Shown here piece after piece: positions 46-21,961 of a stretch of DNA of 31,120 nt. The position numbers and the translations under genes are program-made. The DNA comes from Alphaproteobacteria bacterium (GTDB lineage: Bacteria; Pseudomonadota; Alphaproteobacteria; GCA-2731375). The stretch is from assembly GCA_965225945.1 (NCBI GenBank), contig CBDDBZ010000017.1, forward strand, positions 1-31,120, written 5' to 3'. The notes under the pieces were generated by a model, which did not search any database, had not been told where the DNA came from, and saw only the letters and a list, made by a program, of their open reading frames with translations. Each line of letters starts with the position of its first letter. The stretch's first letter is position 1.

Positions 46-1290
46 TCAGGCCGCCTTGCGCGCGGCGATCAGGGCCAGGGTCCGTGCCATCTCGTTGGTC
101 AGCACCGCCAGCCCTTCGTCGACGCCTTGGCCGGGCTTGTTCATGATGAAGTCGGCCCTGCAGGCGAGGCCGACATGGGCCGAAAGACGGGCCGATTGAT
201 CGGTCTCGTTGGCGGAGCCGCCGAGGTAGACCCCGGCGCCCTTTTCCCGGCAATGGAGCAACGCCAGAATCGAGTTCTGGATGCCGCCGAGATCGGGCAT
301 TTTCACCTGCAGGAAATCGGCCGCGCCGACCGCGGCGAAGGCCTCGATGTCGTCGAGCGTGTTGCACCATTCGTCGGCGACCAGCTTGACCTCGACGCCT
401 TGGCCCAGGCAGGCCAGGCCCAAGTCCTGGAAGGCCTGGATCTGGCCCTCGCGGCTGGCCGCGATCATCGGCGTTTCGAGGTAGAGCGGCATCGGGCCCG
501 AGGCTTCGGCCAGCCGGCCGATGAAGCCCGCCATGGCGTCCCAGTCTTCGCCGAAGAGCTGACCGAGCGTGCCGTAGACATCGAGATGCATCGCCGGGTG
601 GTAGTCCGCCGCGCCCAGGGCCTGGACCCGGCCCGAGACCCAAGCGGCATAGGCGAGCAGTTTGGCGCCATCGGGACCGAGATCGTTCTGTAAATTGGCG
701 AAGGAGCCGTGCGGCAGAATGTCGACCCGCTTCAGGATCATTTTTTCGACCATCACCCGGTGGTCGGTCGGGCACATGGCGAGGATGGGGAGGGGGCCGT
801 CGGCGATGTCGGTGCCCCAGGCGCGGGCGATCACTTCCGCCGCCGTCCGCCCCGCGGAAAGTGCCGAGGCGTGCAGCAGCGCCTGCGAAATGCCGTAACG
901 CAGCGCCGTGTGGAGGGCCTGGCCGCAGGCGCGATAAGCTTCGATCTCGCCCGCCAAGGTGCGAAAATCCGCGGCGTCTCGGCCCACCAAGAGCTCAGCG
1001 ATGGGGCCTTCGACCACCCCGCGATGCGCTTCGGCGCGGAACAGCGGATCGCGCCCGGCGGCCCCGGTGAAGATGACATCCATGCAATCGCCGAAGGCGA
1101 CCTGGCCGTCTTCCAAAACCAGCATCACCGACAGCGCCTCGCCCGGCTGGATTACGTGTTCGAAGCCCGCCGTCACCGGAGGGTCGACATAGGCGAAGCC
1201 GTCCTGGCGGGCACCGCCGCGGACCGCCGCCAAATCCTTGTTGAAATAACCGCTCCGCCCCGCCGAACAGATGAGATTGGTAATTTGCAT
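46..1290 (-). CDS. mal: Methylaspartate ammonia-lyase family protein (enolase superfamily), 414 aa, divergent substrate pocket
   Basis: Start reassigned to ATG 1290 (MQITNLICSAG..., GGGGAG upstream). Motifs LEDGQVAFGDC, GRDPLF, LHTALRYG, HLDVYGT, ADEWCN, QVKMPDLGG and KPGQGVDEG are colinear with MAL. Confidence 0.9.
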   Translation of the reverse strand: MQITNLICSAGRSGYFNKDLAAVRGGARQDGFAYVDPPVTAGFEHVIQPGEALSVMLVLEDGQVAFGDCMDVIFTGAAGRDPLFRAEAHRGVVEGPIAELLVGRDAADFRTLAGEIEAYRACGQALHTALRYGISQALLHASALSAGRTAAEVIARAWGTDIADGPLPILAMCPTDHRVMVEKMILKRVDILPHGSFANLQNDLGPDGAKLLAYAAWVSGRVQALGAADYHPAMHLDVYGTLGQLFGEDWDAMAGFIGRLAEASGPMPLYLETPMIAASREGQIQAFQDLGLACLGQGVEVKLVADEWCNTLDDIEAFAAVGAADFLQVKMPDLGGIQNSILALLHCREKGAGVYLGGSANETDQSARLSAHVGLACRADFIMNKPGQGVDEGLAVLTNEMARTLALIAARKAA

Positions 1291-1358
1291 GGACCCTGCT
1301 CCCCAGTGCCGTCGGGCCCAGGATGCCGCGTTTGGAGGCACTGGGGAAAGCCTTTGCC

Positions 1359-2492
1359 TCATGCGATGACGAAGGGTTCGTCGGTGGACATCTTGTCGGA
1401 GAGCAGTTCGGGGCCGCCCGGGCGGACGACGACCATGTCCTGGATATGCCAATGGCCGATATGCGGCTCCAGCGCCAACACCATGCCGTCTTCCAGCACG
1501 ATGTCGCTGCCGCGCCGCAGGATCGGTTCCTGCTGGTGCCACCAGGCGCCGACGCCATGACCGATCAACAGCGATTCGAACTTCCAGCCGCCGTCGGTGA
1601 AGGCCGCCACCGTCGCGTCGTAGATATCGCCGACCCGTGCGCCGGGACGGCAGCGGTCGATGGCGGTGCGGTAGATATCGCGGATCGCGCGATATTCGTC
1701 CCGTTGCGTCTGGGTCGGCTGGCCAAAGACGAGATTGCGCGATTGGTGTCCCGGATAACCGTCGAGATAGGCGACGTAGTCGGTGCGCATGACATCGCCG
1801 AGGTGAAACACCACGTCGCTTTCACCGGCGTAGGGGATCGTGTTGGAACTGGAATTCAGAATGCCATGCGCCCAGTTGCAGCCACCTTCGAGGCATCCGG
1901 CGATGATTCGGGCGTGGGCCGAGCGTTCGCTGTCACCAACCCGCAATTGGGGAAAGACATCGAGGTATACATCGTCCAGCAGGTCGGCCCCGCGCTTGAT
2001 GCGGGCGATTTCCGCGTCGGTCTTGATCCACCGGACCCGGTCCATGATCGCGGTGCAATCGACCATCGTCAGGCCCGGCGTGGCGTCCTGCACCAAGGCC
2101 CAATCCCGCGCGCTGACATAATCCCGCTCGAAGCCGACGCGCGCGCCGCCGAGCCCTTCCTGGCGCAACACTTCGGCGAGCCGCGCATAGGGCGATTCGA
2201 CATAGCCTTCGTAAAGGACCTGGCGCTCGACCCAGGAATCGCGCGCCGCCAGCCCGGCCGCCGTCGCGTTCACGACGAGCACCGGATCGCCCTCGCGCGG
2301 CCAGAGCACCATCACGGCGCGGTCGGAATCGGTCAGGTCCATCAGCCGGGCCAAGGTGCCCGGATAGGCGAGACCCGTGAGATAAGTGAAATTCCGCCCC
2401 GACCGCGCCACCACCGCAGCCAAATCGTTCTCATCCATCAACCGGTTCAAGCGGTCGATGTTGGCAATGATCTGGGGTCTCTTGCCTACCAT
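1359..2492 (-). CDS. M24 (Xaa-Pro peptidase/creatinase fold) hydrolase, 377 aa
   Basis: Start ATG 2492 (MVGKRPQ..., AGGA upstream). Creatinase-N region NFTYLTG, then RWIKTDAEI, GHGVG and LEDGMVLALEP. Confidence 0.85.
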   Translation of the reverse strand: MVGKRPQIIANIDRLNRLMDENDLAAVVARSGRNFTYLTGLAYPGTLARLMDLTDSDRAVMVLWPREGDPVLVVNATAAGLAARDSWVERQVLYEGYVESPYARLAEVLRQEGLGGARVGFERDYVSARDWALVQDATPGLTMVDCTAIMDRVRWIKTDAEIARIKRGADLLDDVYLDVFPQLRVGDSERSAHARIIAGCLEGGCNWAHGILNSSSNTIPYAGESDVVFHLGDVMRTDYVAYLDGYPGHQSRNLVFGQPTQTQRDEYRAIRDIYRTAIDRCRPGARVGDIYDATVAAFTDGGWKFESLLIGHGVGAWWHQQEPILRRGSDIVLEDGMVLALEPHIGHWHIQDMVVVRPGGPELLSDKMSTDEPFVIA

Positions 2493-2989: not shown

Positions 2990-4501
2990 ATGTTGGTCGT
3001 GGAGACGATAGCGCGGATCCGGCGGGAGTATTTCGTCAAGGGGAAGCCGATCAAGGAGATCGTGCGGGACGTGAAGGTCTCGGGCAACACGGTGCGCAAG
3101 GTGATCCGTTCGCAGGCGACGGCGTTCACCTACGACCGGCGGGTCCAGCCGATGCCGAAGCTGGGGCCGTGGACGGTCGAGCTGGAGCGGATGCTGGAGG
3201 CCAACGAGACCAAGTCGAAGCGGGAGCGGCTGACGCTGCTACGGATCTCCGAAGCCCTCGAGGGTCTGGGCTATGGCGGCGGCTACGACGCGGTGCGGCG
3301 CTACGCCAAGGCGTGGCGGTGGCGCCGTTCGGCATCGACGGCGCAGACCTATGTGCCGTTGGTGTTCTCGCCGGGCGAGGCCTATCAGTTCGACTGGAGC
3401 CACGAGTACGTGGTGCTGGCGGGGGTGACGACCAAGGTCAAGGTCGCGCACGTCCGGCTGTGCCACAGCCGAATGTTCTTCGTCCGCGCTTATCCGCGCG
3501 AGAGCCAGGAGATGGTGTTCGACGCCCACGACCGGGCATTCCGGCTGTTCCAGGGTGCCTGCCGGCGAGGCATCTACGACAACATGAAGACGGCGGTGCA
3601 GACCGTCCTCATCGGCAAGGAGCGCGCGTTCAACCGGCGCTTCGTGCAGATGTGTGGCCACTACCTGGTCGAACCGACAGCATGCACGCCGGGAGCGGGA
3701 TGGGAGAAGGGGCAGGTCGAGAACCAGGTCGGGATCATCCGCGGTCGGTTCTTCACCCCGCGGCTGCGCTTCAAGACCTACGACGAGCTCAACGCCTGGC
3801 TCTTGGACCAGTGCGTCGCCTACGCCCGGCGTCATCCCCACCCGGTGTTCAAGGACAGGACTGTCTGGCAGGTGTTCGAGGACGAGCGTCCGTCCCTGGT
3901 CGGCTATCGCGGGCCGTTCGACGGCTTCCACGCGGTCCCGGCGTCGGTGTCGAAGACCTGCCTGGTGCGCTTCGACAGCAACAAGTACAGCGTGGCGGCG
4001 CGCGCCGTCGGCCGTCCGGTCGAGGTCCATGCCTACGCCGATCGCATCGTCATCCGCCAGGACGGCGAGATCGTCGCCGAGCATGCCCGGCGCTTCGGCC
4101 GCGACCAGACCGTCTATGACCCGTGGCACTACGTGCCCGTGCTGGCGAGGAAGCCCGGTGCGCTTCGTAACGGCGCGCCGTTCAAGGACTGGGCGCTGCC
4201 CGGCGCCCTGGGTCGCGTGCGCGTCCGGCTCGCCGGCCACGACGACGGCGACAGGCAGATGGTCGAGATCCTCACCGCCGTGCTGGCGGATGGGCTGGCG
4301 GCGGTGGAGGCCGCCTGTGCCGAGGCGCTCGCTGGCGGCGTGTGCAGCGCCGACGTCGTGCTCAACATCCTCAATCGTCGGCGCCAGCCGTCCGAGACGG
4401 CGCCGATCCCGACGCCCGCGAACCTGCGTCTTCGCTTTGAGCCGGTGGCCGATTGCACCCGCTACGACCGCTTGAGGGGGGTCGGCCATGGAGCGCCATG
4501 A
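2990..4501 (+). CDS. istA: IS21 family DDE transposase IstA
   Basis: N-terminal HTH; QFDW, IYDNMKT and GWEKGQVE motifs. Confidence 0.95.
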
Positions 4502-5216
4502 GGTCCTGGAGATGATGGCCGCACTCAAGCTCGCCGGCATGCGCGACGCGTTCGACGAGGTGCTCGCCGACGGCCTCAAGCGCCAGCATCCGATGCAGCG
4601 AATCATCGGCGAGCTGTTGAAGGCCGAGATCGCCGACAAGCAGGCGCGATCCATCAAGTACCAGATGAGTGGCGCCAAGCTGCCGCTGGCCAAGGAGCTG
4701 GCCGACTTCGACTTCACCGACACCCCGGTCAACGAGCCGCTGGTCCGCGAGTTGGCGGTCGGCGGCTTCCTGGCCAACCAGCGCAACGCCGTGCTGATCG
4801 GCGGCACCGGCACCGGCAAGAGCCATCTCGCCGTCGCCATCGCGCGGGCCTGCATCCGCGATGGCGCCCGGGGCCGCTTCTTCAACGTCGTCGACCTGGT
4901 CAACCGGCTCGAGGCCGAAGCCCGCGCCGGCCGCCAGGGCCGGCTCGCCGATCAGCTGGCCCGGCGCGACCTCGTCATCCTCGACGAGCTCGGCTACCTG
5001 CCCTTCGCCCAAACCGGAGGCCAGCTGCTGTTCCACCTCGTCAGCCGGCTCTACGAGCGCACCTCGATCATCGTCACCACCAACCTGACCTTCGGCGAAT
5101 GGCCGTCCGTCTTCGGCGACGCCAAGATGACCACCGCGCTCCTCGATCGTCTGACGCACCACTGCGAGATCATCGAGACCGGAAACGACTCCTGGCGCTT
5201 CAAGAATCGGTCCTAA
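4488..5216 (+). CDS. istB: IS21 helper AAA+ ATPase IstB
   Basis: Walker A GGTGTGKS, Walker [18 protein letters not shown]; overlaps istA by 14 nt. Confidence 0.95.
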
Positions 5217-5474: not shown

Positions 5475-5900
5475 ATGGCGATTCGCGAACACCCGACCCC
5501 GGGCACAATCTTGCTCTGCAATTTCGAGAATGGCTTCAAAGTGCCAGAAATGGTGAAGAGGCGGCCATCGGTTGTGGTTAGCCCAAAAATTAGCGGTCGG
5601 CCGAACTTGTGCACGGTGGTCCCGCTCAGCACGACACCACCCAAACCGAAAATGGCCTATCATCTTCTTCTCCACATTGACCCTCCGCTGCCACCGCCTT
5701 GGCACGAAGGGCCGAATTGGGCCAAGGCAGACATGATCATCTCCGTGGCGTTCCACCGCCTCGATTTGATCCGCCTCGGCAAGGCCATGACCGGCAAACG
5801 CAACTATCGATACGAGACACTTTCGTCCGATCAGATGAAACAGCTACGACGATGCATGCTGTACTCCCTCGGTATGGGCCGGTTGACGCAACACCTGTAA
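5475..5900 (+). CDS. PemK/MazF-family endoribonuclease toxin (YifN-like); no antitoxin ORF seen
   Basis: PGTILLCNF..GFKVPEMVKRRPSVVVSP...LCTVVPLSTT carries the K-x-R-P and VVPLST signatures of the PemK fold. Confidence 0.85.
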   Translation: MAIREHPTPGTILLCNFENGFKVPEMVKRRPSVVVSPKISGRPNLCTVVPLSTTPPKPKMAYHLLLHIDPPLPPPWHEGPNWAKADMIISVAFHRLDLIRLGKAMTGKRNYRYETLSSDQMKQLRRCMLYSLGMGRLTQHL

Positions 5901-7651: not shown

Positions 7652-7923
7652 ATGTTGGGCACGCTTCGCGAGAAGCTGATCAAGATCGGAGCAAAGGTGG
7701 TCCGCCATGGGCGGTACGTCACGTTTCAACCTGCCGAGGTCGCAATCCCGATAAGTCTGTTCGCCAACATCGTGCGCCTGATTGACGGCCTGCGATCGGC
7801 CCCTCTACCGCCATGGCGGCGCTCGATCCCGTGGCATCGAGTTCTTCCGACGGGAAGTGTGGCGCGATCGCCCTTCATGCTACCATCGTCGGCAACCGGG
7901 AGCAGCCATCTGGGGATTTTCGG
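7652..7923 (+). mobile_element. 3' remnant of an IS1380-family element (transposase C-terminus plus right end)
   Basis: TLREKLIKIGAKVVRHGRYVTFQPAEVAIP..LFANIVRLIDGLRSAPLPP matches the IS1380 transposase tail; the end CATCTGGGGATTTTCGG (to 7923) resembles the family terminal repeat. Confidence 0.8.
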
Positions 7924-8961: not shown

Positions 8962-9789
8962 ATGGCTCGACTGGACGGCAAGGTCGCCTTCATCACCGGC
9001 GCGGGCTCCGGCATCGGGCGCGCCACGGCCAGGCTGTTCGCGAGCGAGGGCGCGCGCGCCTTCATCACCGGCGCGGGCTCCGGCATCGGGCGCGCCACGG
9101 CCAGGCTGTTCGCGAGCGAGGGCGCGCGCGTCGTCGTCGCGGACATCGACGTTCCCGCCGGCGAGGAGACGGTGGCGCTGGTCGAGGAGGCGGGCCACCA
9201 AGCGGTCTTCGTCGAGACCGACGTCACGGCCGAGGAGAGCGTCGCCGCCGCCGCGACGCGCGCGCTCGAAGCCTTCGCCACGGTGAACGTGCTGCACAAC
9301 AATGCCGGCGGCTCGTCCCTAAAAGACAGCCGGCTGACGGAGGGCTCCATCGACGAATTTTGGCGGGTGATCGGCGTCGATCTCTTCGGCACCTGGCTCT
9401 GCAGCCGCGCCATCATCCCGATCATGATCGAGGGCGGTGGCGGCTCGGTCATCAACATGACCTCGAACGTCGCCCTGATGGCGATCCCCGGCCGCGATTC
9501 CTATACCGCCGCCAAGGGCGGCGTGGCCTCGATGACCCGCTCGATGGCGGCCGAGTACGCCGCCGAGGGCATTCGCGTGAACGCCATCGCGCCCTCGGTG
9601 ACGCTGACGCCCCGGGTGCGCAACATCCTCGCCAACGATCCCTTGGTGGGCGAGCTCTCGCGCACCCACCTGGTGGGCCTGGCGGAGCCGGAGGATATCG
9701 CCAACACGGCGCTGTTCCTGGCCTCGGACGAATCCCGCATCACCACCGGGCACATCCTCACCGTCGACAGCGGCACCACGATCTCCTGA
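8962..9789 (+). CDS. Short-chain dehydrogenase/reductase (NAD-preferring type) with internal 24-aa duplication
   Basis: TGAGSGIG, VADID, NNAG, YTAAK; SD GAGGG upstream. Confidence 0.92.
   Translation: MARLDGKVAFITGAGSGIGRATARLFASEGARAFITGAGSGIGRATARLFASEGARVVVADIDVPAGEETVALVEEAGHQAVFVETDVTAEESVAAAATRALEAFATVNVLHNNAGGSSLKDSRLTEGSIDEFWRVIGVDLFGTWLCSRAIIPIMIEGGGGSVINMTSNVALMAIPGRDSYTAAKGGVASMTRSMAAEYAAEGIRVNAIAPSVTLTPRVRNILANDPLVGELSRTHLVGLAEPEDIANTALFLASDESRITTGHILTVDSGTTIS
8986..9129 (+). repeat. Perfect 2 x 72-bp tandem duplication inside the SDR
   Basis: 8986-9057 is identical to 9058-9129; each encodes AFITGAGSGIGRATARLFASEGAR. Confidence 0.97.
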
Positions 9790-9853: not shown

Positions 9854-11944
9854 GTGAGCCGCTATTCTCTCGGCATCGATATCGGCGGCACCTTCACCGA
9901 TATCGTCGTCTTCGATCACCGGGCCGGCGCCAGGCTGAGCCGCAAGGTGCTGACCACGCACGACGATCCCTCGGTGGGCGTGTTGCGGGGAATCGATCTG
10001 ATCGTGAGCCGGGACGGCGTGCCGGCGGGCGAGATCGGCCGAGTGGTGCACGCCACCACGCTCTTCTCCAACGCGCTGATCGAGCGCAAGGGCGCCCGCA
10101 CCGGACTGGTCACCACGGCGGGCTTCCGCGACACGCTGGAGATCGGGCGGGAGCGCAAGTACGAGCTTTACGACGTGAGCATCCGCAAGCCCGAGCCGCT
10201 GGTCCCCCGGCCGCTCAGGCGCGAGGTGGTGGAGCGGGCCCGCGCCGACGGGCGGATCGAGACGCCGCTCGACTGCGATCAGTTGCGCCGGGTGGCGGCG
10301 GGCCTGGTGGCGGACGGGGTCTCCTCGATCGCCGTCGTCTTCCTGCACAGCTACGCCAATCCGAGTCACGAGGTCGAGGCGGCGGCCGCAATTCTGGCTG
10401 CGCATCCAGAAATCGCGGTGACGAGATCGAGCGAGGTGGCGCCCGAGGTCCGCGAATTCGAACGCGCCTCCACCGCCGTCGCCAACGCCTACATCAAGCC
10501 CTTGGCCGCCACCTACCTGGACGCGCTGGCCGCGCGGCTCGCCGAACGCGACATCGCCGCGAGTTTCCTCCTGATGCTTTCCAGCGGCGGGCTCACCCAC
10601 CTGGCCGAGGCGAAGCGGGCGCCCGTGCAACTGCTGGAAAGCGGGCCGGCGGCCGGCGCGCTCGCCGCCGCGCACCTGGGGCGGGCCGATGGCGGCGCCG
10701 ATCTGCTCGCCTTCGACATGGGGGGCACCACCGCCAAGCTCAGCGTGATCGCGGACGGCGAGCCGCTGATCGCGCACGGCTTCGAGGCGGCGCGGCAGAA
10801 GCGCTTCATCGAGGGAAGCGGCCTGCCGATCCGGATCTCCACCATCGAGTTGATCGAGATCGGCGCCGGCGGCGGCTCGATCGCCGGCGTCGACGATATC
10901 GGCCTGCTGAAGGTCGGCCCGAGGAGCGCCGGCTCCGAGCCCGGGCCCGCCGCTTACGGGCAGGGTGGACGCGAAGCGACGGTGACCGACGCTGACTTCC
11001 TGCTCGGCTATTTGAGCCCCGAGTATTTCGCCGGCGGCGAGATGGCGATCGATATGACCGCCTGCCGCGCCGCCATGGCGGCGGTGGCGGAACGAACCGG
11101 CCTATCCCTCGAGCGCGCCGCCTGGGGCATCCACGACATCGTCAACGAGAACATGGCGAGCGCGGCGCGCGTGCATATCGCCGAGCGGGGCCGCGATCCG
11201 CGCTCCTTCACCCTGCTGGCCACCGGCGGCGCGGGGCCGGTGCACGCCTATCACGTCGCGGCCAAGCTCGCCATTCGCCGCGTGATCTGTCCGCCGGCGG
11301 CGGGCGTCGCCTCGGCGCTGGGCCTGCTGTTGGCGCCGGCCCGGGTCGATCGCGTCACCACGCTCACCCGCCGGCTCGAGGAATTGGATTGGCCGGCGCT
11401 GGAGGCGGCGTATCTGGCGATGGAACGCGAGGCGCGCGCGGTGATCGCCGAGACCGGCCTCGACCCGGCGACGGCGACGGTGCAACGCCAGGCCGACATG
11501 CGCTTCACCGGCCAGGCCTTCGAGATCGTGGTGGGGTTGCCGCCGGGACTTTACGACGTGGACTCCTTGCCGGCCTTTCTCGCCGCCTACCAGCGGGTCT
11601 ACCTGGAGAAGTTCACCCGGACGCCGCCGGAGGTGGCGGTGGAGATCGTCAATCTCCGCGTCTCGCTCCGCGCGCCGGTGCCCGGCGGCGGTCTCGGCGC
11701 TTCGAGGCCGGGCGAGGTGGGCACGAGCCCGCCGAAGGGCGAGCGGCCGGTCTACTTTCCTGATTTCGACGGCCCGCGCGCGACGCCGGTGGTGAAGCGT
11801 GCCGGCCTCCGCCCGGGCGACCAATTCCAGGGTCCGGTGATCGTCGAGGAAGCGGAATCGACCTTGGTCATCGGCCCGAGGGCGAGTGCCGAGGTGGTGG
11901 CGAGCGGCAACATCGTGATGACCATGGAGGAGGACGCCGAATGA
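9854..11944 (+). CDS. Hydantoinase/oxoprolinase family subunit A (ATP-binding)
   Basis: DIGGTFTD, ESGPAAG, DMGGTT, IGAGGGS, GPRSAGSEPGPA, ATVTDA; GTG start. Confidence 0.92.
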   Translation: MSRYSLGIDIGGTFTDIVVFDHRAGARLSRKVLTTHDDPSVGVLRGIDLIVSRDGVPAGEIGRVVHATTLFSNALIERKGARTGLVTTAGFRDTLEIGRERKYELYDVSIRKPEPLVPRPLRREVVERARADGRIETPLDCDQLRRVAAGLVADGVSSIAVVFLHSYANPSHEVEAAAAILAAHPEIAVTRSSEVAPEVREFERASTAVANAYIKPLAATYLDALAARLAERDIAASFLLMLSSGGLTHLAEAKRAPVQLLESGPAAGALAAAHLGRADGGADLLAFDMGGTTAKLSVIADGEPLIAHGFEAARQKRFIEGSGLPIRISTIELIEIGAGGGSIAGVDDIGLLKVGPRSAGSEPGPAAYGQGGREATVTDADFLLGYLSPEYFAGGEMAIDMTACRAAMAAVAERTGLSLERAAWGIHDIVNENMASAARVHIAERGRDPRSFTLLATGGAGPVHAYHVAAKLAIRRVICPPAAGVASALGLLLAPARVDRVTTLTRRLEELDWPALEAAYLAMEREARAVIAETGLDPATATVQRQADMRFTGQAFEIVVGLPPGLYDVDSLPAFLAAYQRVYLEKFTRTPPEVAVEIVNLRVSLRAPVPGGGLGASRPGEVGTSPPKGERPVYFPDFDGPRATPVVKRAGLRPGDQFQGPVIVEEAESTLVIGPRASAEVVASGNIVMTMEEDAE

Positions 11945-13554
11945 AGGGAACCACGCCGACGCTGGACGCGGTGCTGCTTGAGGTGCTCTGGACGCGGCTG
12001 ATCTCGATCGTCGACGAGGCGGCGAAGGCGATCGTGCGCACTTCCTTTTCCACCCTCTCGAACGAGGCCAACGATTTCGCCTGCGTGCTGACCGATGGGC
12101 AAGGCGAGCTGATCGCCCAGAACACCGGCTCGATTCCCTCCTTCATCGGCACTTTGCCGGCGACGGTGCGCCACTTCATCGCCCACTTCGGCCATGACGG
12201 GCTCGAGCCCGGCGACGTGCTCTCGACCAACAATCCCTGGCAGGGGACCGGTCACCTGAACGACGTCTGCATCGTCAGGCCGATCTTCCACTCCGGTCGT
12301 CTGGTCGCCTTCTCCGCCACCACCTCGCACGTGCCCGATATCGGCGGGCGGATCCGCTCGATGATCGCGCGGGAGGTCTTCGAGGAAGGCTTCCACATCC
12401 CCTTGATGAAGATCGTCCGGGCGGGCGAGGCGGACGAGACCTTCTTCCGCCTGCTCCGGACCCAGGTGCGGACGCCGGAACAGACCGAAGGCGACATCCA
12501 GGCCCAGATCAGCGCCAACGGCCTGATGGAACGCCGCCTGTTGGCGCTGCTGGAGGAATATCGCCTGGGCGATCTCGACGCTTTGTCAGCTGAGCTGAAT
12601 GGGCGCTGCGAAGCGGCGATGCGGGCGGCGATCCGGAGCTTGCCCGACGGCGTCCAGCGTTTCGCCATGGAGACCGACGGGCACGATCCCGCCACGCCCT
12701 ACCACTTCGAGCTGGCGCTGGAGATCGCCGGCGACACGGTCCGCTTCGACTATAACGGCACCTCGGCGGAGCAGCCGCGCTCGATCAACTGTCCGCTCTG
12801 CTACACCTTCGCGATGTCGGCCTATGCGCTGAAGTGCGCGCTGTTGCCGGAACTGCCGAACAACGCCGGCATGCTGAGGCCGATCTCGGTCTCGGCACCC
12901 GAGCGCTCGCTGCTCAATCCACTGCCGCCCGCTGCCGTGGGGGCCCGGGCCAGCACCGGGCATTACGTGCCGGTGCTGGTCTTCGGGGCGCTGGCGCCGG
13001 TGCTGCCGGATCGCGTGATGGCGGCCCCGGGCTCGCCCTTGTGGAACTGCACCCAGGGCGGCATTCGGGCGGATGGGCGGAGCTATACGACCAACCTGTT
13101 CTTCAACGGCGGCATGGGAGCGACCCAGGGCGGCGACGGCGAGTCGGCGCTTTCCTGGCCCTCCAACCTCTCTTCGACGCCGGTCGAGGTGGCGGAGCAA
13201 ATCTCGCCGCTGCTCTTTCGCTACAAGCGGTTGACGCCGGGCTCCGGCGGCCGGGGGCGCCACCGCGGCGGCCTGGGCCAAGAGATGGAGATGGTGAACG
13301 AATCCGAGACGCCCACCACCGTCACCTTCCTGGGCGAGCGGACCCGGGTGCCGGCGCCCGGCCTCGACGGCGGGGAGGCGGGCGGGCTGGGCGCCGTCGA
13401 GATCAACGGCGTCGCGCACGATCCGCGCGGTGTCTACTTCCTCGAGAGAGGTGACGTGTTGATGGTGCGCACGCCGGGCGGTGGTGGCTTCGGTCCGCCT
13501 GAGGAGCGCGAGGAGACGGAGCTGAACCGCGACGTGACGCATGAATATCTCTGA
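11941..13554 (+). CDS. Hydantoinase B/oxoprolinase family subunit
   Basis: NNPWQGTGHLND, HVPDIGG, EEG, GSGGRGRHRGGLG, TPGGGGFG; ATGA overlap with subunit A. Confidence 0.92.
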   Translation: MKGTTPTLDAVLLEVLWTRLISIVDEAAKAIVRTSFSTLSNEANDFACVLTDGQGELIAQNTGSIPSFIGTLPATVRHFIAHFGHDGLEPGDVLSTNNPWQGTGHLNDVCIVRPIFHSGRLVAFSATTSHVPDIGGRIRSMIAREVFEEGFHIPLMKIVRAGEADETFFRLLRTQVRTPEQTEGDIQAQISANGLMERRLLALLEEYRLGDLDALSAELNGRCEAAMRAAIRSLPDGVQRFAMETDGHDPATPYHFELALEIAGDTVRFDYNGTSAEQPRSINCPLCYTFAMSAYALKCALLPELPNNAGMLRPISVSAPERSLLNPLPPAAVGARASTGHYVPVLVFGALAPVLPDRVMAAPGSPLWNCTQGGIRADGRSYTTNLFFNGGMGATQGGDGESALSWPSNLSSTPVEVAEQISPLLFRYKRLTPGSGGRGRHRGGLGQEMEMVNESETPTTVTFLGERTRVPAPGLDGGEAGGLGAVEINGVAHDPRGVYFLERGDVLMVRTPGGGGFGPPEEREETELNRDVTHEYL

Positions 13555-13641
13555 GCGACAGGGCTTCTGGTAGACTGGTGCAAGCATGGACCGGGGGCGC
13601 GGGCGAACGCCCCTCGGCAATAGAGGAACCGACGTCGGGAA

Positions 13642-15282
13642 ATGACCGCAAGCCGAGCATCAACCCTCCACGTTCGAGGATCCCCCGAACTCGACTTCGA
13701 CGCCATCGTGATCGGGGCGGGCATGTCGGGCATGTACCAGTTGTACCGTTTGCGGGAATTGGGCCTGCGCGTGAGGGTATTCGAAGCCGGTACCGGCGTC
13801 GGCGGTACCTGGTATTGGAACCGGTATCCGGGTGCCCGCTTCGATTCCGAGAGCTACTCCTACGGCTATTCCTTCTCCCAGGAATTGCTCGACGAGTGGG
13901 ACTGGTCCGAGCATTTCTCCTCTCAGCTGGAGGTCGAACGCTACCTGAATCATGTCGCCGACAAGTTCGATTTGCACGGGGATATTCAGTTCTCCAGCCG
14001 CGTCGCCTCCGCCGAATATGACCAAGACGGCGGTTACTGGGCGATAACGCTGGAAGACGGCGCTCGCTATCGGTCTCGGTTCATGATCACGGCGATCGGG
14101 CTGTTGTCCGCGCCGACCATGCCGCGCTTCGAAGGCATGGATGAGTTTCGGGGCCAGTCCTGTCATACCGGGCTCTGGCCGAAGGCGCCGGTCGACTTCG
14201 AAGACAAGCGGGTCGCGGTCATCGGCACCGGCGCGAGCGGAGTCCAGGCGATCCAGGAAATCGCCAAGACGGCCGGGCATCTGACCGTTTTCCAGCGCCG
14301 GCCCAACTGGTGTACGCCGCTCCACAACCGGCCCATCGACAGCCAGGAAATGGCCAGGATTCGGGCGGGCTATCCGGAATTGTTCCAGCTTTGCCGCGAG
14401 ACCGCCGCCTGCTTCATCCACACGGTCGACCCGCGCGGTACCTTCGAAGTGTCCGAGGAGGAACGCCAAGCCTTCTGGGAGGAACTGTATGCCGGCCAAG
14501 GTTTCGGTATTTGGCAGGGCAATTTCCGGGACATGTTGATCGATCGCGAGGCGAACGGACTGATGTCCGATTTCGTGGCCGACAAAATTCGCCAGCGGGT
14601 GAAGGATCCGAAGACCGCCGAAATGCTGATCCCGAAGGATCACGGATTCGGGACGCGCCGGGTTCCCCAGGAATCGCACTATTACGAGACCTACAACCAG
14701 CCGAACGTAAAGCTGGTCAGCATGCTCGAGACGCCGATCGAGCGCATTACCCCCACCGGTATCAAGACCGGCGAGGCCGACTACGAATTCGATATCATCA
14801 TTTACGCAACCGGTTTCGACGCCGTGACCGGCAGTTTCGACCGTATCGATATCAGGGGTATCGACGGGCGGAAGCTGAAAGATAAGTGGCGGGGCGGGCC
14901 GGAGACTTTCGTCGGCTTGATGGTCGACGGCTATCCCAACATGTTCATGATCATGGGGCCGCACGCCGCGCTCGGCAACAATCCCCGGAGCATCGAATAC
15001 AACGTCGAATGGCTACGGGATCTGATCGGCTACATGGGCGAGCGGGACTTGACGGTCGCCGAGGCCCGGCCGGAGGCGGTGAATGATTGGGCCGACGTCG
15101 TCAGAGCGAAGGCCGAGGGTCTGCTGTCGAACGAGATCGACTCCTGGATGACTGGTATCAACATGAACGTCGAGGGCAAGCAGACCCGCACCATCGTCCG
15201 CTACAGCGGCACCGCGCCCGAGTATCGCGCGAGGTGCGACCAAATCGCGGCCGAGGGCTATCGGGAAATCAGGCTCGCGTAG
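13642..15282 (+). CDS. Type I Baeyer-Villiger monooxygenase (FAD/NADPH)
   Basis: GAGMSG, GGTWYWNRYPGARFD, fingerprint FRGQSCHTGLWP, second Rossmann GTGASG, ATGFD. Confidence 0.93.
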   Translation: MTASRASTLHVRGSPELDFDAIVIGAGMSGMYQLYRLRELGLRVRVFEAGTGVGGTWYWNRYPGARFDSESYSYGYSFSQELLDEWDWSEHFSSQLEVERYLNHVADKFDLHGDIQFSSRVASAEYDQDGGYWAITLEDGARYRSRFMITAIGLLSAPTMPRFEGMDEFRGQSCHTGLWPKAPVDFEDKRVAVIGTGASGVQAIQEIAKTAGHLTVFQRRPNWCTPLHNRPIDSQEMARIRAGYPELFQLCRETAACFIHTVDPRGTFEVSEEERQAFWEELYAGQGFGIWQGNFRDMLIDREANGLMSDFVADKIRQRVKDPKTAEMLIPKDHGFGTRRVPQESHYYETYNQPNVKLVSMLETPIERITPTGIKTGEADYEFDIIIYATGFDAVTGSFDRIDIRGIDGRKLKDKWRGGPETFVGLMVDGYPNMFMIMGPHAALGNNPRSIEYNVEWLRDLIGYMGERDLTVAEARPEAVNDWADVVRAKAEGLLSNEIDSWMTGINMNVEGKQTRTIVRYSGTAPEYRARCDQIAAEGYREIRLA

Positions 15283-21145: not shown

Positions 21146-21889
21146 TCAATGATCCTCGAGCAGGGTGCCGAAGCCCTCGATCCGATCCCGGATTGCGAGC
21201 CCGCGCAGCACGTGCCAGTAGGTCGCCGTGTTGATCGCGATCACCGGCTTGGCGAGCCAGCGCTCGGCCTCGGCGGCGAGGCGGACCATGGAGAGGTTGG
21301 TGCCGGCCTGCACCAGGGCGTCGACGTCGTCGCCGTCCAGCTCCCGAAGTGCGGCACGAAGCCGGTCCTCGTCCAGCTCGGCGATGGCGAGCGGCGTGGC
21401 GCAGCGGAGGCCGACGAAGCGGCGCACCTCGAAGCCGCAATCGCCCAAAAAGCGGCTGACCTGATCGTCGGCGATTTGGGGATAGGGCGAGAGCACGGCC
21501 ACGCGTCGCGCACCGTGGGCACGCAAGGCCTCGACCAGCGCGAAGGAGCCGCCGGTGACCGGCACGCCGGCGTGCTTCTCCAGGGCGCTCCGTCGCGCTT
21601 CCGAGGCTTCCAGCCCCTCCCAGAAGATGAAGGAGGAAATGCCGATCACCACGCAGTCGGGCGCGGCGGTCATGATCCGATCGACGGCGGCGTAAATTTC
21701 CACCTCGATCATTCCCATCAGCCGCTTGAAGTCCTCGTCGCTGTCGATCTTCGCGTTGGGCACCATGATGCGGCCGACGTGATTGGTGACGCCGTCGGGG
21801 CGCATGGCCTCGAAATCCGGCTGCAGGATGGTGTTGGTGGAAGGTAGTGCTACGCCGATCTTGGCCCGCCAGCCGAGTACGTCCCCCAT
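21146..21889 (-). CDS. Asp/Glu racemase superfamily protein (maleate isomerase/arylmalonate decarboxylase-like)
   Basis: GWRAKIGVALPSTNT, RVAVLSPY, DALVQAGTNL, KPVIAIN; ATG 21889 after GGGAGG. Confidence 0.85.
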   Translation of the reverse strand: MGDVLGWRAKIGVALPSTNTILQPDFEAMRPDGVTNHVGRIMVPNAKIDSDEDFKRLMGMIEVEIYAAVDRIMTAAPDCVVIGISSFIFWEGLEASEARRSALEKHAGVPVTGGSFALVEALRAHGARRVAVLSPYPQIADDQVSRFLGDCGFEVRRFVGLRCATPLAIAELDEDRLRAALRELDGDDVDALVQAGTNLSMVRLAAEAERWLAKPVIAINTATYWHVLRGLAIRDRIEGFGTLLEDH

Positions 21890-21961
21890 CGCCCCGCCGC
21901 CTCCCAAGATTGTCGCCAGTGCTCGTGATCTTGCCTGCTCGCAGTCCCGCTGGCCAGCCGC

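What the first reader, a model, noticed from the sequence alone, without database searches (positions are those of the whole stretch)
46..1290. Methylaspartate ammonia-lyase homologue with a rebuilt substrate pocket
Seen, against the Clostridium tetanomorphum MAL sequence as I recall it: the Mg ligands (HLDVYG, LET, ADEW), catalytic Lys (QVKMPD) and His (LPHG) are kept. Pocket residues differ: AAVQYSG becomes MDVIFTG (Q73 to I), PVFAQSG becomes PILAMCP (F170 to L, Q172 to M), GGTCNET becomes GGSANET (T360 to S, C361 to A), and QVLAKPGMG becomes FIMNKPGQG (L384 to M, M389 to Q). Established: Q73/Q172 line the amine pocket and L384 the substituent pocket, and Q73A or L384A widen the substrate range. 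The upstream neighbour is a hydrolase, not glutamate mutase. Inference: a natural C-N (or other) lyase for a different, possibly N-substituted, substrate, of biocatalytic interest.
Basis: partly seen in the sequence, partly recalled or inferred. Interest (0 to 1): 0.7.

Follow-up and report, generated by a model that had tools for sequence, protein, structure and literature searches.

The report
Methylaspartase cousin with swapped pocket residues
This marine bacterial gene is labelled a methylaspartate ammonia-lyase, but it keeps only the catalytic core, has different substrate-pocket residues and has no partner mutase in the assembled genome, so it likely breaks down a different, still unknown succinate-like compound.

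Summary
Observation confirmed. Window 46-1290 (-) encodes an intact 414-aa MAL-fold protein (44% identical to C. tetanomorphum MAL, TM 0.94). The Mg ligands, both bases (K331, H194) and Q329 are kept. Q73I, F170L, Q172M, T360S, C361A, L384M and M389Q are real; D18K, A71D, S173C, L196S and D277I were missed.

It belongs to a large non-canonical clade: 0 of 38 such loci carry glutamate mutase E, against 37 of 42 canonical loci, and none was found in its own genome. Within that clade it sits in a subgroup with a reciprocal Q172/M389 to M172/Q389 swap (70 of 70 full-length), which lacks the MmgE/PrpD and binding-protein neighbours of the sister subgroup.

Best guess (0.4): an Mg-dependent lyase removing a modified nitrogen group from a (3-methyl)aspartate skeleton to give mesaconate or fumarate. 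The substrate is unproven. The scan noted the wider clade twice on other DNA; my searches found no characterised member in print.

The parts
46..1290 (-). MAL-fold enzyme, 414 aa, non-canonical M172/Q389 subgroup (P0001)
   Evidence: TIGR01502 456.7 bits, cut-off 286; pLDDT 94; TM 0.94-0.96 to 1KCZ/1KKO
1072..1080 (-). beta5-alpha2 loop codons D71-V72-I73 (Ala and Gln at 71 and 73 in CtMAL)
772..783 (-). codons 170-173, L-A-M-C (F170L, Q172M, S173C)
709..711 (-). H194, R-specific base, kept
   Evidence: role from PMC7586795 passage
580..582 (-). Mg ligand D237 (CtMAL D238); E272 at 475-477 and D306 at 373-375 are also kept
301..309 (-). Q328 and K330 (CtMAL Q329 and K331, the S-specific base), kept
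   Evidence: roles from PMC7241714
211..228 (-). Y355 (Y356, methyl pocket, kept), S359 and A360 (T360S, C361A; C1-carboxylate site, tolerated changes)
127..144 (-). M383 (L384M) and Q388 (M389Q, reciprocal of Q172M)
1299..1304 (-). Shine-Dalgarno-like GGGGAG supporting the ATG at 1290
   Evidence: sequence
1359..2492 (-). co-oriented upstream M24/creatinase-fold hydrolase, 377 aa, 68 nt from the lyase; several peptidase metal ligands look altered in the alignment to proline dipeptidases
   Evidence: junction bridged by independent contigs; no close orthologue in 32 family genomes
2990..5216 (+). IS21-type transposase and IstB bounding the two-gene unit upstream

Best explanation
The gene encodes an intact enolase-superfamily enzyme with the full methylaspartase catalytic core but a re-polarised leaving-group pocket, and it likely works as an Mg2+-dependent lyase that removes a modified nitrogen group (a small N-alkyl or amide-type nitrogen, not plain ammonia) from an aspartate or 3-methylaspartate skeleton, giving fumarate or mesaconate. 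Shown: fold, conserved Mg ligands, K331, H194 and Q329, the pocket changes, clade membership, and no mutase in the assembly. Inferred from MAL chemistry: the C4 carboxylate binds Mg/H194/Q329, K331 or H194 takes the C3 proton, and the enolate expels the C2 substituent. Inferred from residues: the C1-carboxylate site (S360, A361 backbone) and the 3-methyl pocket (L170, Y356, M384) survive, while the ammonium-binding amides Q73 and Q172 are replaced and a new amide appears at 389. Weakly inferred from context: an amide-cleaving neighbour supplies the substrate, and the C5 product would enter the mesaconyl-CoA route.
For: Catalytic residues H194, D238, Y240, E273, D307, E308, Q329 and K331 are invariant in all 121 aligned sequences. 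The model superposes on solved MALs at TM 0.94-0.96. Q172 and Q73 bind the amino group; Q172A raises Km and Q172N nearly abolishes activity (PMC7241714). Glutamate mutase E is in 0 of 38 non-canonical against 37 of 42 canonical loci and was not found in the own genome. Y356 is kept in all 70 full-length M172 sequences but in only 4 of 49 other non-canonical ones, which suggests the methyl pocket is kept. Amide-cleaving neighbours recur in separate lineages: M24 here; a PuuE/HpPgdA-like hydrolase whose gene abuts the lyase start in 9 of the 11 M172-bearing genomes of one order (these genomes are kin); an amidase in 3 of 11 loci; an M20 amidohydrolase in genus g5. In 4 of 4 lyase-bearing g5 genomes the gene lies between a mesaconyl-CoA isomerase-like gene (TIGR04253 594 bits, under the 725 cut-off; 7XKG E 3e-170) and a split MaoC-type hydratase pair that directly follows it in 11 of 14 lyase-less g5 loci. 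A 90%-identical relative is flanked by an acyl-CoA dehydrogenase and an HMG-CoA-lyase-like gene (L091).
Against: No activity was measured and no coordinates were available for docking. I73, M172 and M384 are not small, so room for an N-substituent is not evident. No neighbour is conserved across the subgroup. The PuuE-like gene occurs without the lyase (G001, G002, G009; 3 of 5 genomes) and is unlinked in the own genome (C32:141746). The isomerase-like gene is family-wide (30 of 33), and G041 carries the same inserted block without the lyase. The M24 neighbour has no close orthologue in 32 family genomes. A true MAL can lack an adjacent mutase. The protein passes the MAL equivalog cut-off. Tree support for the M172 subgroup is mixed (FastTree 0.935; SH-aLRT 58.7).
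Confidence: 0.4

Rival explanations
1. It acts on nitrogen-free C5 diacids by proton shuffling: a methylsuccinate racemase using K331 and H194 as the two bases, or an itaconate/mesaconate-type double-bond isomerase, with I73 and M172 filling the space of the amine.
For: Both S- and R-specific bases are kept. The amine pocket becomes hydrophobic without shrinking. The methyl pocket and distal carboxylate site are kept. Mesaconyl-CoA, acyl-CoA dehydrogenase and HMG-CoA-lyase-like neighbours occur. Methylsuccinate isomerisation is a real catabolic need (PMC12290011, passages).
Against: The known methylsuccinate isomerase is an MmgE/PrpD protein that always lies beside methylsuccinyl-CoA dehydrogenase; no such fixed pairing is seen here. 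The recurring amidohydrolase neighbours would be unexplained. No general acid for gamma-protonation was identified.
Confidence: 0.15
2. It is a C-O or C-S lyase on a 2-substituted succinate, for example a 3-methylmalate or citramalate dehydratase, or a small-thioether lyase, giving mesaconate or fumarate.
For: The enolase superfamily includes many dehydratases (established; passage). A Met/Ile pocket suits sulfur. The mesaconyl-CoA context in g5 fits.
Against: Loss of a hydroxide needs an acid catalyst, and none is evident (C173, K18 and D71 are untested candidates). Class I fumarases already hydrate mesaconate (PMC4682846, abstract start in listing).
Confidence: 0.15
3. It is still an ordinary methylaspartase: Q389 takes over from Q172, and the cell deaminates scavenged L-threo-3-methylaspartate or aspartate without a mutase.
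For: TIGR01502 score above cut-off. Strict Q172/M389 versus M172/Q389 reciprocity. M389 is listed as a pocket residue. Carboxydothermus MAL is active without an adjacent mutase. Two Nocardioides loci keep Q73/Q172 without GlmE.
Against: Q73, D18, L196 and D277 also change. Every natural MAL I could align that has been assayed (1KCZ, 1KKO) keeps Q73 and Q172. There is no evident source of 3-methylaspartate in the genome.
Confidence: 0.12
4. The Gln swap moves the amine-binding amide across the pocket, so the enzyme deaminates D-configured aspartate, 3-methylaspartate or N-methyl-D-aspartate.
For: Reciprocal swap in 70 of 70 sequences. Marine hosts and habitats. D-aspartate uptake in marine plankton is noted in PMC6946804 (passage).
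Against: The geometry of 172 and 389 relative to C2 could not be inspected, and inversion at C2 is pure inference. No D-amino-acid genes recur nearby.
Confidence: 0.1
5. It is the partner of a divergent B12 glutamate-mutase-like enzyme found in some host genomes, in a variant mutase-lyase pathway.
For: 4 of 13 M172-bearing genomes tested hold a divergent GlmE-like gene elsewhere, and the M172 gene is their only MAL-family gene.
Against: Never adjacent. In 91 genomes of one order: 14 with the mutase, 12 with a MAL-family gene, 3 with both, against 1.85 expected (Fisher p 0.39; kin not independent). Not found in the own genome.
Confidence: 0.03

Closest known systems
3-Methylaspartate ammonia-lyase (EC 4.3.1.2) of Clostridium tetanomorphum (1KCZ) and Citrobacter amalonaticus (1KKO/1KKR)
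   Same: Fold (TM 0.94-0.96, 44% identity), Mg ligands, K331/H194/Q329, Y240, Y356, N362/E363; Pfam MAAL_N and MAAL_C; above the TIGR01502 cut-off.
   Different: Q73I, Q172M, M389Q, F170L, L384M, D18K, A71D, S173C, L196S, D277I; no glmS/glmL/glmE; falls in a separate clade.
Carboxydothermus hydrogenoformans MAL (PMC3310078)
   Same: No adjacent glutamate mutase; Ser at position 360.
   Different: It keeps 9 of 10 active-site residues; this protein changes 6 of the 10 pocket residues listed in bioRxiv 583088 and also M389.
Engineered CtMAL Q73A (3ZVH) and L384A (3ZVI)
   Same: The same positions are altered; these variants accept alkylamines and bulky fumarates (PMC7586795).
   Different: The engineered changes create cavities; here Ile and Met are of similar size to the originals (volumes recalled).
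Sister non-canonical subgroup with Ser/Asn172
   Same: D71, I73, L170, C173, no mutase; one clade with the M172 group.
   Different: It has a small residue at 172, mostly loses Y356 and has F/L/I at 389. It lies with MmgE/PrpD in 17 of 27 loci and an SBP-5 binding protein in 15 of 27, against 0 of 11 for both in the M172 subgroup.
EDDS lyase and iminodisuccinate C-N lyase (aspartase/fumarase superfamily)
   Same: Proposed type of reaction: release of a substituted amine from a succinate skeleton.
   Different: Unrelated fold and mechanism (PMC7586795; iminodisuccinate lyase recalled).

Membership tests
Enolase superfamily, MAL subgroup | Capping domain plus barrel of the MAL type | tested here: met
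   PF05034 and PF07476; Foldseek TM 0.94-0.96
Enolase superfamily, MAL subgroup | Three Mg ligands D238/E273/D307 and bases K331/H194 with Q329 | tested here: met
3-Methylaspartate ammonia-lyase EC 4.3.1.2 | Score above the TIGR01502 equivalog cut-off | tested here: met
   456.7 against 286.15 bits
3-Methylaspartate ammonia-lyase EC 4.3.1.2 | Amine-binding Q73 and Q172 | tested here: not met
   I73, M172; Q389 may partly compensate
3-Methylaspartate ammonia-lyase EC 4.3.1.2 | Methyl pocket F170/Y356/L384 | tested here: inconclusive
   L170/Y356/M384: still hydrophobic, two changes
3-Methylaspartate ammonia-lyase EC 4.3.1.2 | C1-carboxylate site T360/C361 | tested here: inconclusive
   S360/A361; both tolerated singly in CaMAL; S360 natural in ChMAL
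3-Methylaspartate ammonia-lyase EC 4.3.1.2 | Deaminates L-threo-3-methylaspartate to mesaconate (Mg2+, K+) | not testable with these tools
   needs an assay
Glutamate mutase (methylaspartate) pathway | glmS/glmL/glmE beside the lyase or in the genome | tested here: not met
   PF06368 0 hits (controls ring in 84), PF13941 0 hits; genome 96.6% complete; DNA downstream of the gene lies beyond the contig end
Ser172 sister subgroup (MmgE/PrpD plus binding protein) | Small residue at 172 and MmgE/PrpD or SBP-5 neighbour | tested here: not met
   M172; 0 of 11 M172 loci have either neighbour
Q73A-like wide-amine C-N lyase | Cavity-creating change at 73 or 172 | tested here: not met
   Ile and Met at sequence level; loop reshaping could not be examined without coordinates

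The most novel reading that the evidence does not exclude
The MAL subgroup of the enolase superfamily is not one reaction but a large, functionally split family, and this M172/Q389 branch performs chemistry never recorded for it: nitrogen-free racemisation or isomerisation of C5 diacids, or deamination of D-configured aspartates, set by a natural Gln-Met swap across the active site.
Probability: 0.3. Interest if true: 0.75.

Novelty: new variant of a known kind. Interest (0 to 1): 0.52.

Why it matters
Databases call these proteins methylaspartate ammonia-lyase (names; TIGR01502 passes them), so marine and soil genomes are probably credited with a glutamate-fermentation step that they lack. 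MAL is an established biocatalyst scaffold whose scope has been changed by engineering positions 73 and 384; a natural family that varies these and neighbouring positions is a ready library of new specificities. A short substrate panel on one purified protein would settle whether the MAL subgroup has more than one reaction.

Tried and rejected
Downstream operon: not readable, because the window starts at the contig end. The first 300 nt match nothing else in the genome. Contigs X3 and X5 run only about 43 nt further and X2 about 188 nt, letters not shown.

(TIGR01503) rang nowhere, controls included, so it was not used; one search replaced it.

Divergent mutase as partner: rejected.

MmgE/PrpD or SBP link for this subgroup: rejected (0 of 11).

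PuuE-like and mesaconyl-CoA isomerase links as obligatory: rejected; kept as weak hints.

Expression: RNA contigs of three runs match parts of the gene's 3' half at 0-1 differing letters, but no silent control was laid, so transcription is not claimed.

Promoter and terminator scan: nothing above shuffles.

The Atlas search with a homologue returned only MAL-named clusters.

Dropped rows: in the neighbourhood counts 3 of 83 loci (L021, L024, L079) were dropped because my simple gene caller missed the MAL gene; many loci are cut short by contig ends. The tree left out L015, L033 and one partial paralogue, and has no haloarchaeal or actinomycete outgroup.

Literature: ten searches of an open-access library found no characterised member of this clade. 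Most subscription papers, including the primary MAL structure and mutagenesis papers, were not searchable. No supplements were read.

Full report
What is there. The window is contig C17 of a 6.27-Mb, 96.6% complete genome, starting at its first base; close homologues come from Alphaproteobacteria. Bases 46-1290 on the minus strand encode 414 residues without a break. Pfam finds both MAL domains, NCBIfam TIGR01502 scores 456.7 against a cut-off of 286, and the only solved sequence relatives are CtMAL, its Q73A and L384A variants and CaMAL. An AlphaFold model from 87 sequences (pLDDT 94) matches these at TM 0.94-0.96 and 44% identity. It is the only MAL-family gene in the genome. The stretch is held by sponge and marine-sediment metagenome runs (X10 laid with 0-1 differences).

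Residues. Against 1KCZ the Mg ligands, K331, H194, Q329, Y240 and Y356 are kept. K331 and H194 are the S- and R-specific bases (PMC7586795, passages). Their weight differs. Q172 and Q73 (through water) bind the amino group; Q172A raises Km and Q172N almost abolishes activity; T360S is near wild type and C361A costs about 6-fold in CaMAL; F170, Y356 and L384 form the methyl pocket (PMC7241714, passages). So the distal carboxylate site and a hydrophobic methyl pocket plausibly survive, and the real change is at the leaving group. Further clade-wide changes are D18K, A71D, S173C, L196S and D277I; positions 18, 196 and 277 are named among residues of the gating subdomain and pocket entrance in bioRxiv 583088 (passages). 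Ile73 and Met384 are not cavity-forming as Ala is (side-chain volumes recalled), so the engineered variants are a poor guide to pocket size.

Family. All 120 best homologues listed (53-96% identical) lack Q73 and Q172 while keeping the catalytic set. A tree of 110 sequences separates 68 non-canonical from 42 canonical ones (FastTree 0.999; SH-aLRT 93). The non-canonical clade splits into a Ser/Asn172 group (32 sequences, support 99) and a Met172-Cys-Pro group (34; 0.935 and 58.7) that holds this protein. In the Met172 group position 389 is Gln in 70 of 70 sequences that cover it (2 truncated); canonical loci have Gln172/Met389 in 41 of 42. This is a reciprocal swap between two pocket positions, but it is one inherited event, not 70 independent ones. 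A search of 50%-identity representatives gave 180 hits at E up to 1e-30; among 78 near-full-length ones only 26 have both Gln residues (this set includes fragments and poorly aligned rows), so the family is far more varied than the assayed enzymes.

Context. Of 80 typed loci from genomes, GlmE lies in 37 of 42 canonical and 0 of 38 non-canonical ones. PF06368 and PF13941 find nothing in the own genome. This is not decisive alone: Carboxydothermus MAL is active without an adjacent mutase (PMC3310078, passages). The Ser172 group lies with MmgE/PrpD (17 of 27) and an SBP-5 binding protein (15 of 27); the Met172 group has neither (0 of 11), so the earlier scan notes on the wider clade do not describe this subgroup's setting. 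Met172 neighbours vary by lineage: an M24 hydrolase here (21-23% identical to two M24 genes beside three paralogues in L108); a PuuE/HpPgdA-like hydrolase abutting the start codon, often followed by an amidase or an Ldh_2-type dehydrogenase, in a marine order; in genus g5 a block with a mandelate-racemase-family gene inserted between a mesaconyl-CoA isomerase-like gene and a split MaoC-type pair (calling that pair a mesaconyl-CoA hydratase is my inference from position and PF13452); and an acyl-CoA dehydrogenase and HMG-CoA-lyase-like gene in the 90% relative L091. Controls weaken each link: the isomerase is in 30 of 33 family genomes, the block occurs without the lyase in G041, and the PuuE-like gene occurs without it in six genomes. 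The gene is patchy: 4 of 32 other family genomes, 0 of 2 in its genus, and 1 of 400 class genomes (four paralogues, none Met172). With IS21 upstream, this fits a mobile or often lost accessory gene.

A lead that failed. Four Met172-bearing genomes hold a divergent GlmE-like gene, but across 91 genomes the two are not associated (14, 12, both 3; p 0.39).

Mechanism. The first half-reaction is well supported by inference from the conserved core: Mg-assisted removal of the C3 proton of a succinate-type diacid. The second half is open. I commit to elimination of a modified nitrogen group (0.4), because the scaffold is an eliminase, the ammonium contacts are replaced but an amide is re-installed at 389, and amide-cleaving enzymes recur beside the gene in three lineages. 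Rivals are nitrogen-free racemisation or isomerisation (0.15), C-O/C-S elimination (0.15), ordinary MAL activity rescued by the swap (0.12), and D-amino-acid deamination (0.10).

Comparison and novelty. It is a member of the MAL structural subgroup but fails the amine-pocket and pathway tests for EC 4.3.1.2. Ten literature searches found no characterised member of the clade in the open library. Papers were read as passages only (PMC7241714, bioRxiv 583088, PMC7586795, PMC10992142, PMC3310078, PMC12290011, PMC6946804, PMC8307300, bioRxiv 2025.11.12.688011). The scan had noted the wider clade twice on other DNA, and I reached the same general view from my own calls. What this report adds is the Met172/Gln389 subgroup, its different neighbourhoods and the corrections to the pocket argument. 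Verdict: real, a new variant of a known kind, readily testable, substrate unknown; interest 0.52.

Noticed in passing
L160-L164, L167-L180 (e.g. L161:7556-9049): Divergent glutamate-mutase-like genes (glmL-glmE, with glmS where seen) in marine alphaproteobacteria, about 40% identical to a canonical GlmE, with R149L, H150S and E171L against 1CB7 in the copy aligned (the roles of these residues in binding glutamate are recalled). 11 of 14 such genomes have no MAL-family gene: a likely orphan B12 mutase with another substrate.
   Followed up: partly
window 1359-2492 (-): M24-fold protein with altered metal-ligand motifs against proline dipeptidases, no close orthologue in 32 family genomes; function unknown.
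   Followed up: partly
L108:2627-14146; L112:5115-9221; G364 (L121-L124): Clusters of 2-4 non-canonical MAL paralogues with different pockets, in L108 with two M24 hydrolases and, in L108 and L112, an aminotransferase-like gene (by eye).
   Followed up: partly
L035, L038, L039, L044, L069, L114-L117: Ser172-group lyase with MmgE/PrpD and an ABC transporter beside histidine-degradation genes (HutH in 5 of 27 loci; urocanase and HutF-like genes too), hinting at a histidine-succinate adduct as substrate.
   Followed up: no
G000:C5:12386-14464 and family loci L125-L144: Mesaconyl-CoA C1-C4 isomerase-like gene in 30 of 33 genomes of this family, followed by a MaoC-type hydratase-like gene that is split into two genes in genus g5.
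   Followed up: partly
window 8962-9789 (+): The short-chain dehydrogenase begins with a perfect tandem duplication of about 25 codons; possibly an assembly artefact.
   Followed up: no
window 5475-5900 (+), 7652-7800: Orphan PemK/MazF-like gene after the IS21 element, and a DDE transposase remnant fused in frame before a DUF1194 gene.
   Followed up: no
window 9854-15282 (+), 21146-21907 (-): Hydantoinase/oxoprolinase A and B genes, a flavin monooxygenase and an arylmalonate-decarboxylase/EutA-like gene lie between the island and the tuf-rpoB cluster; no link to the lyase was shown.
   Followed up: no
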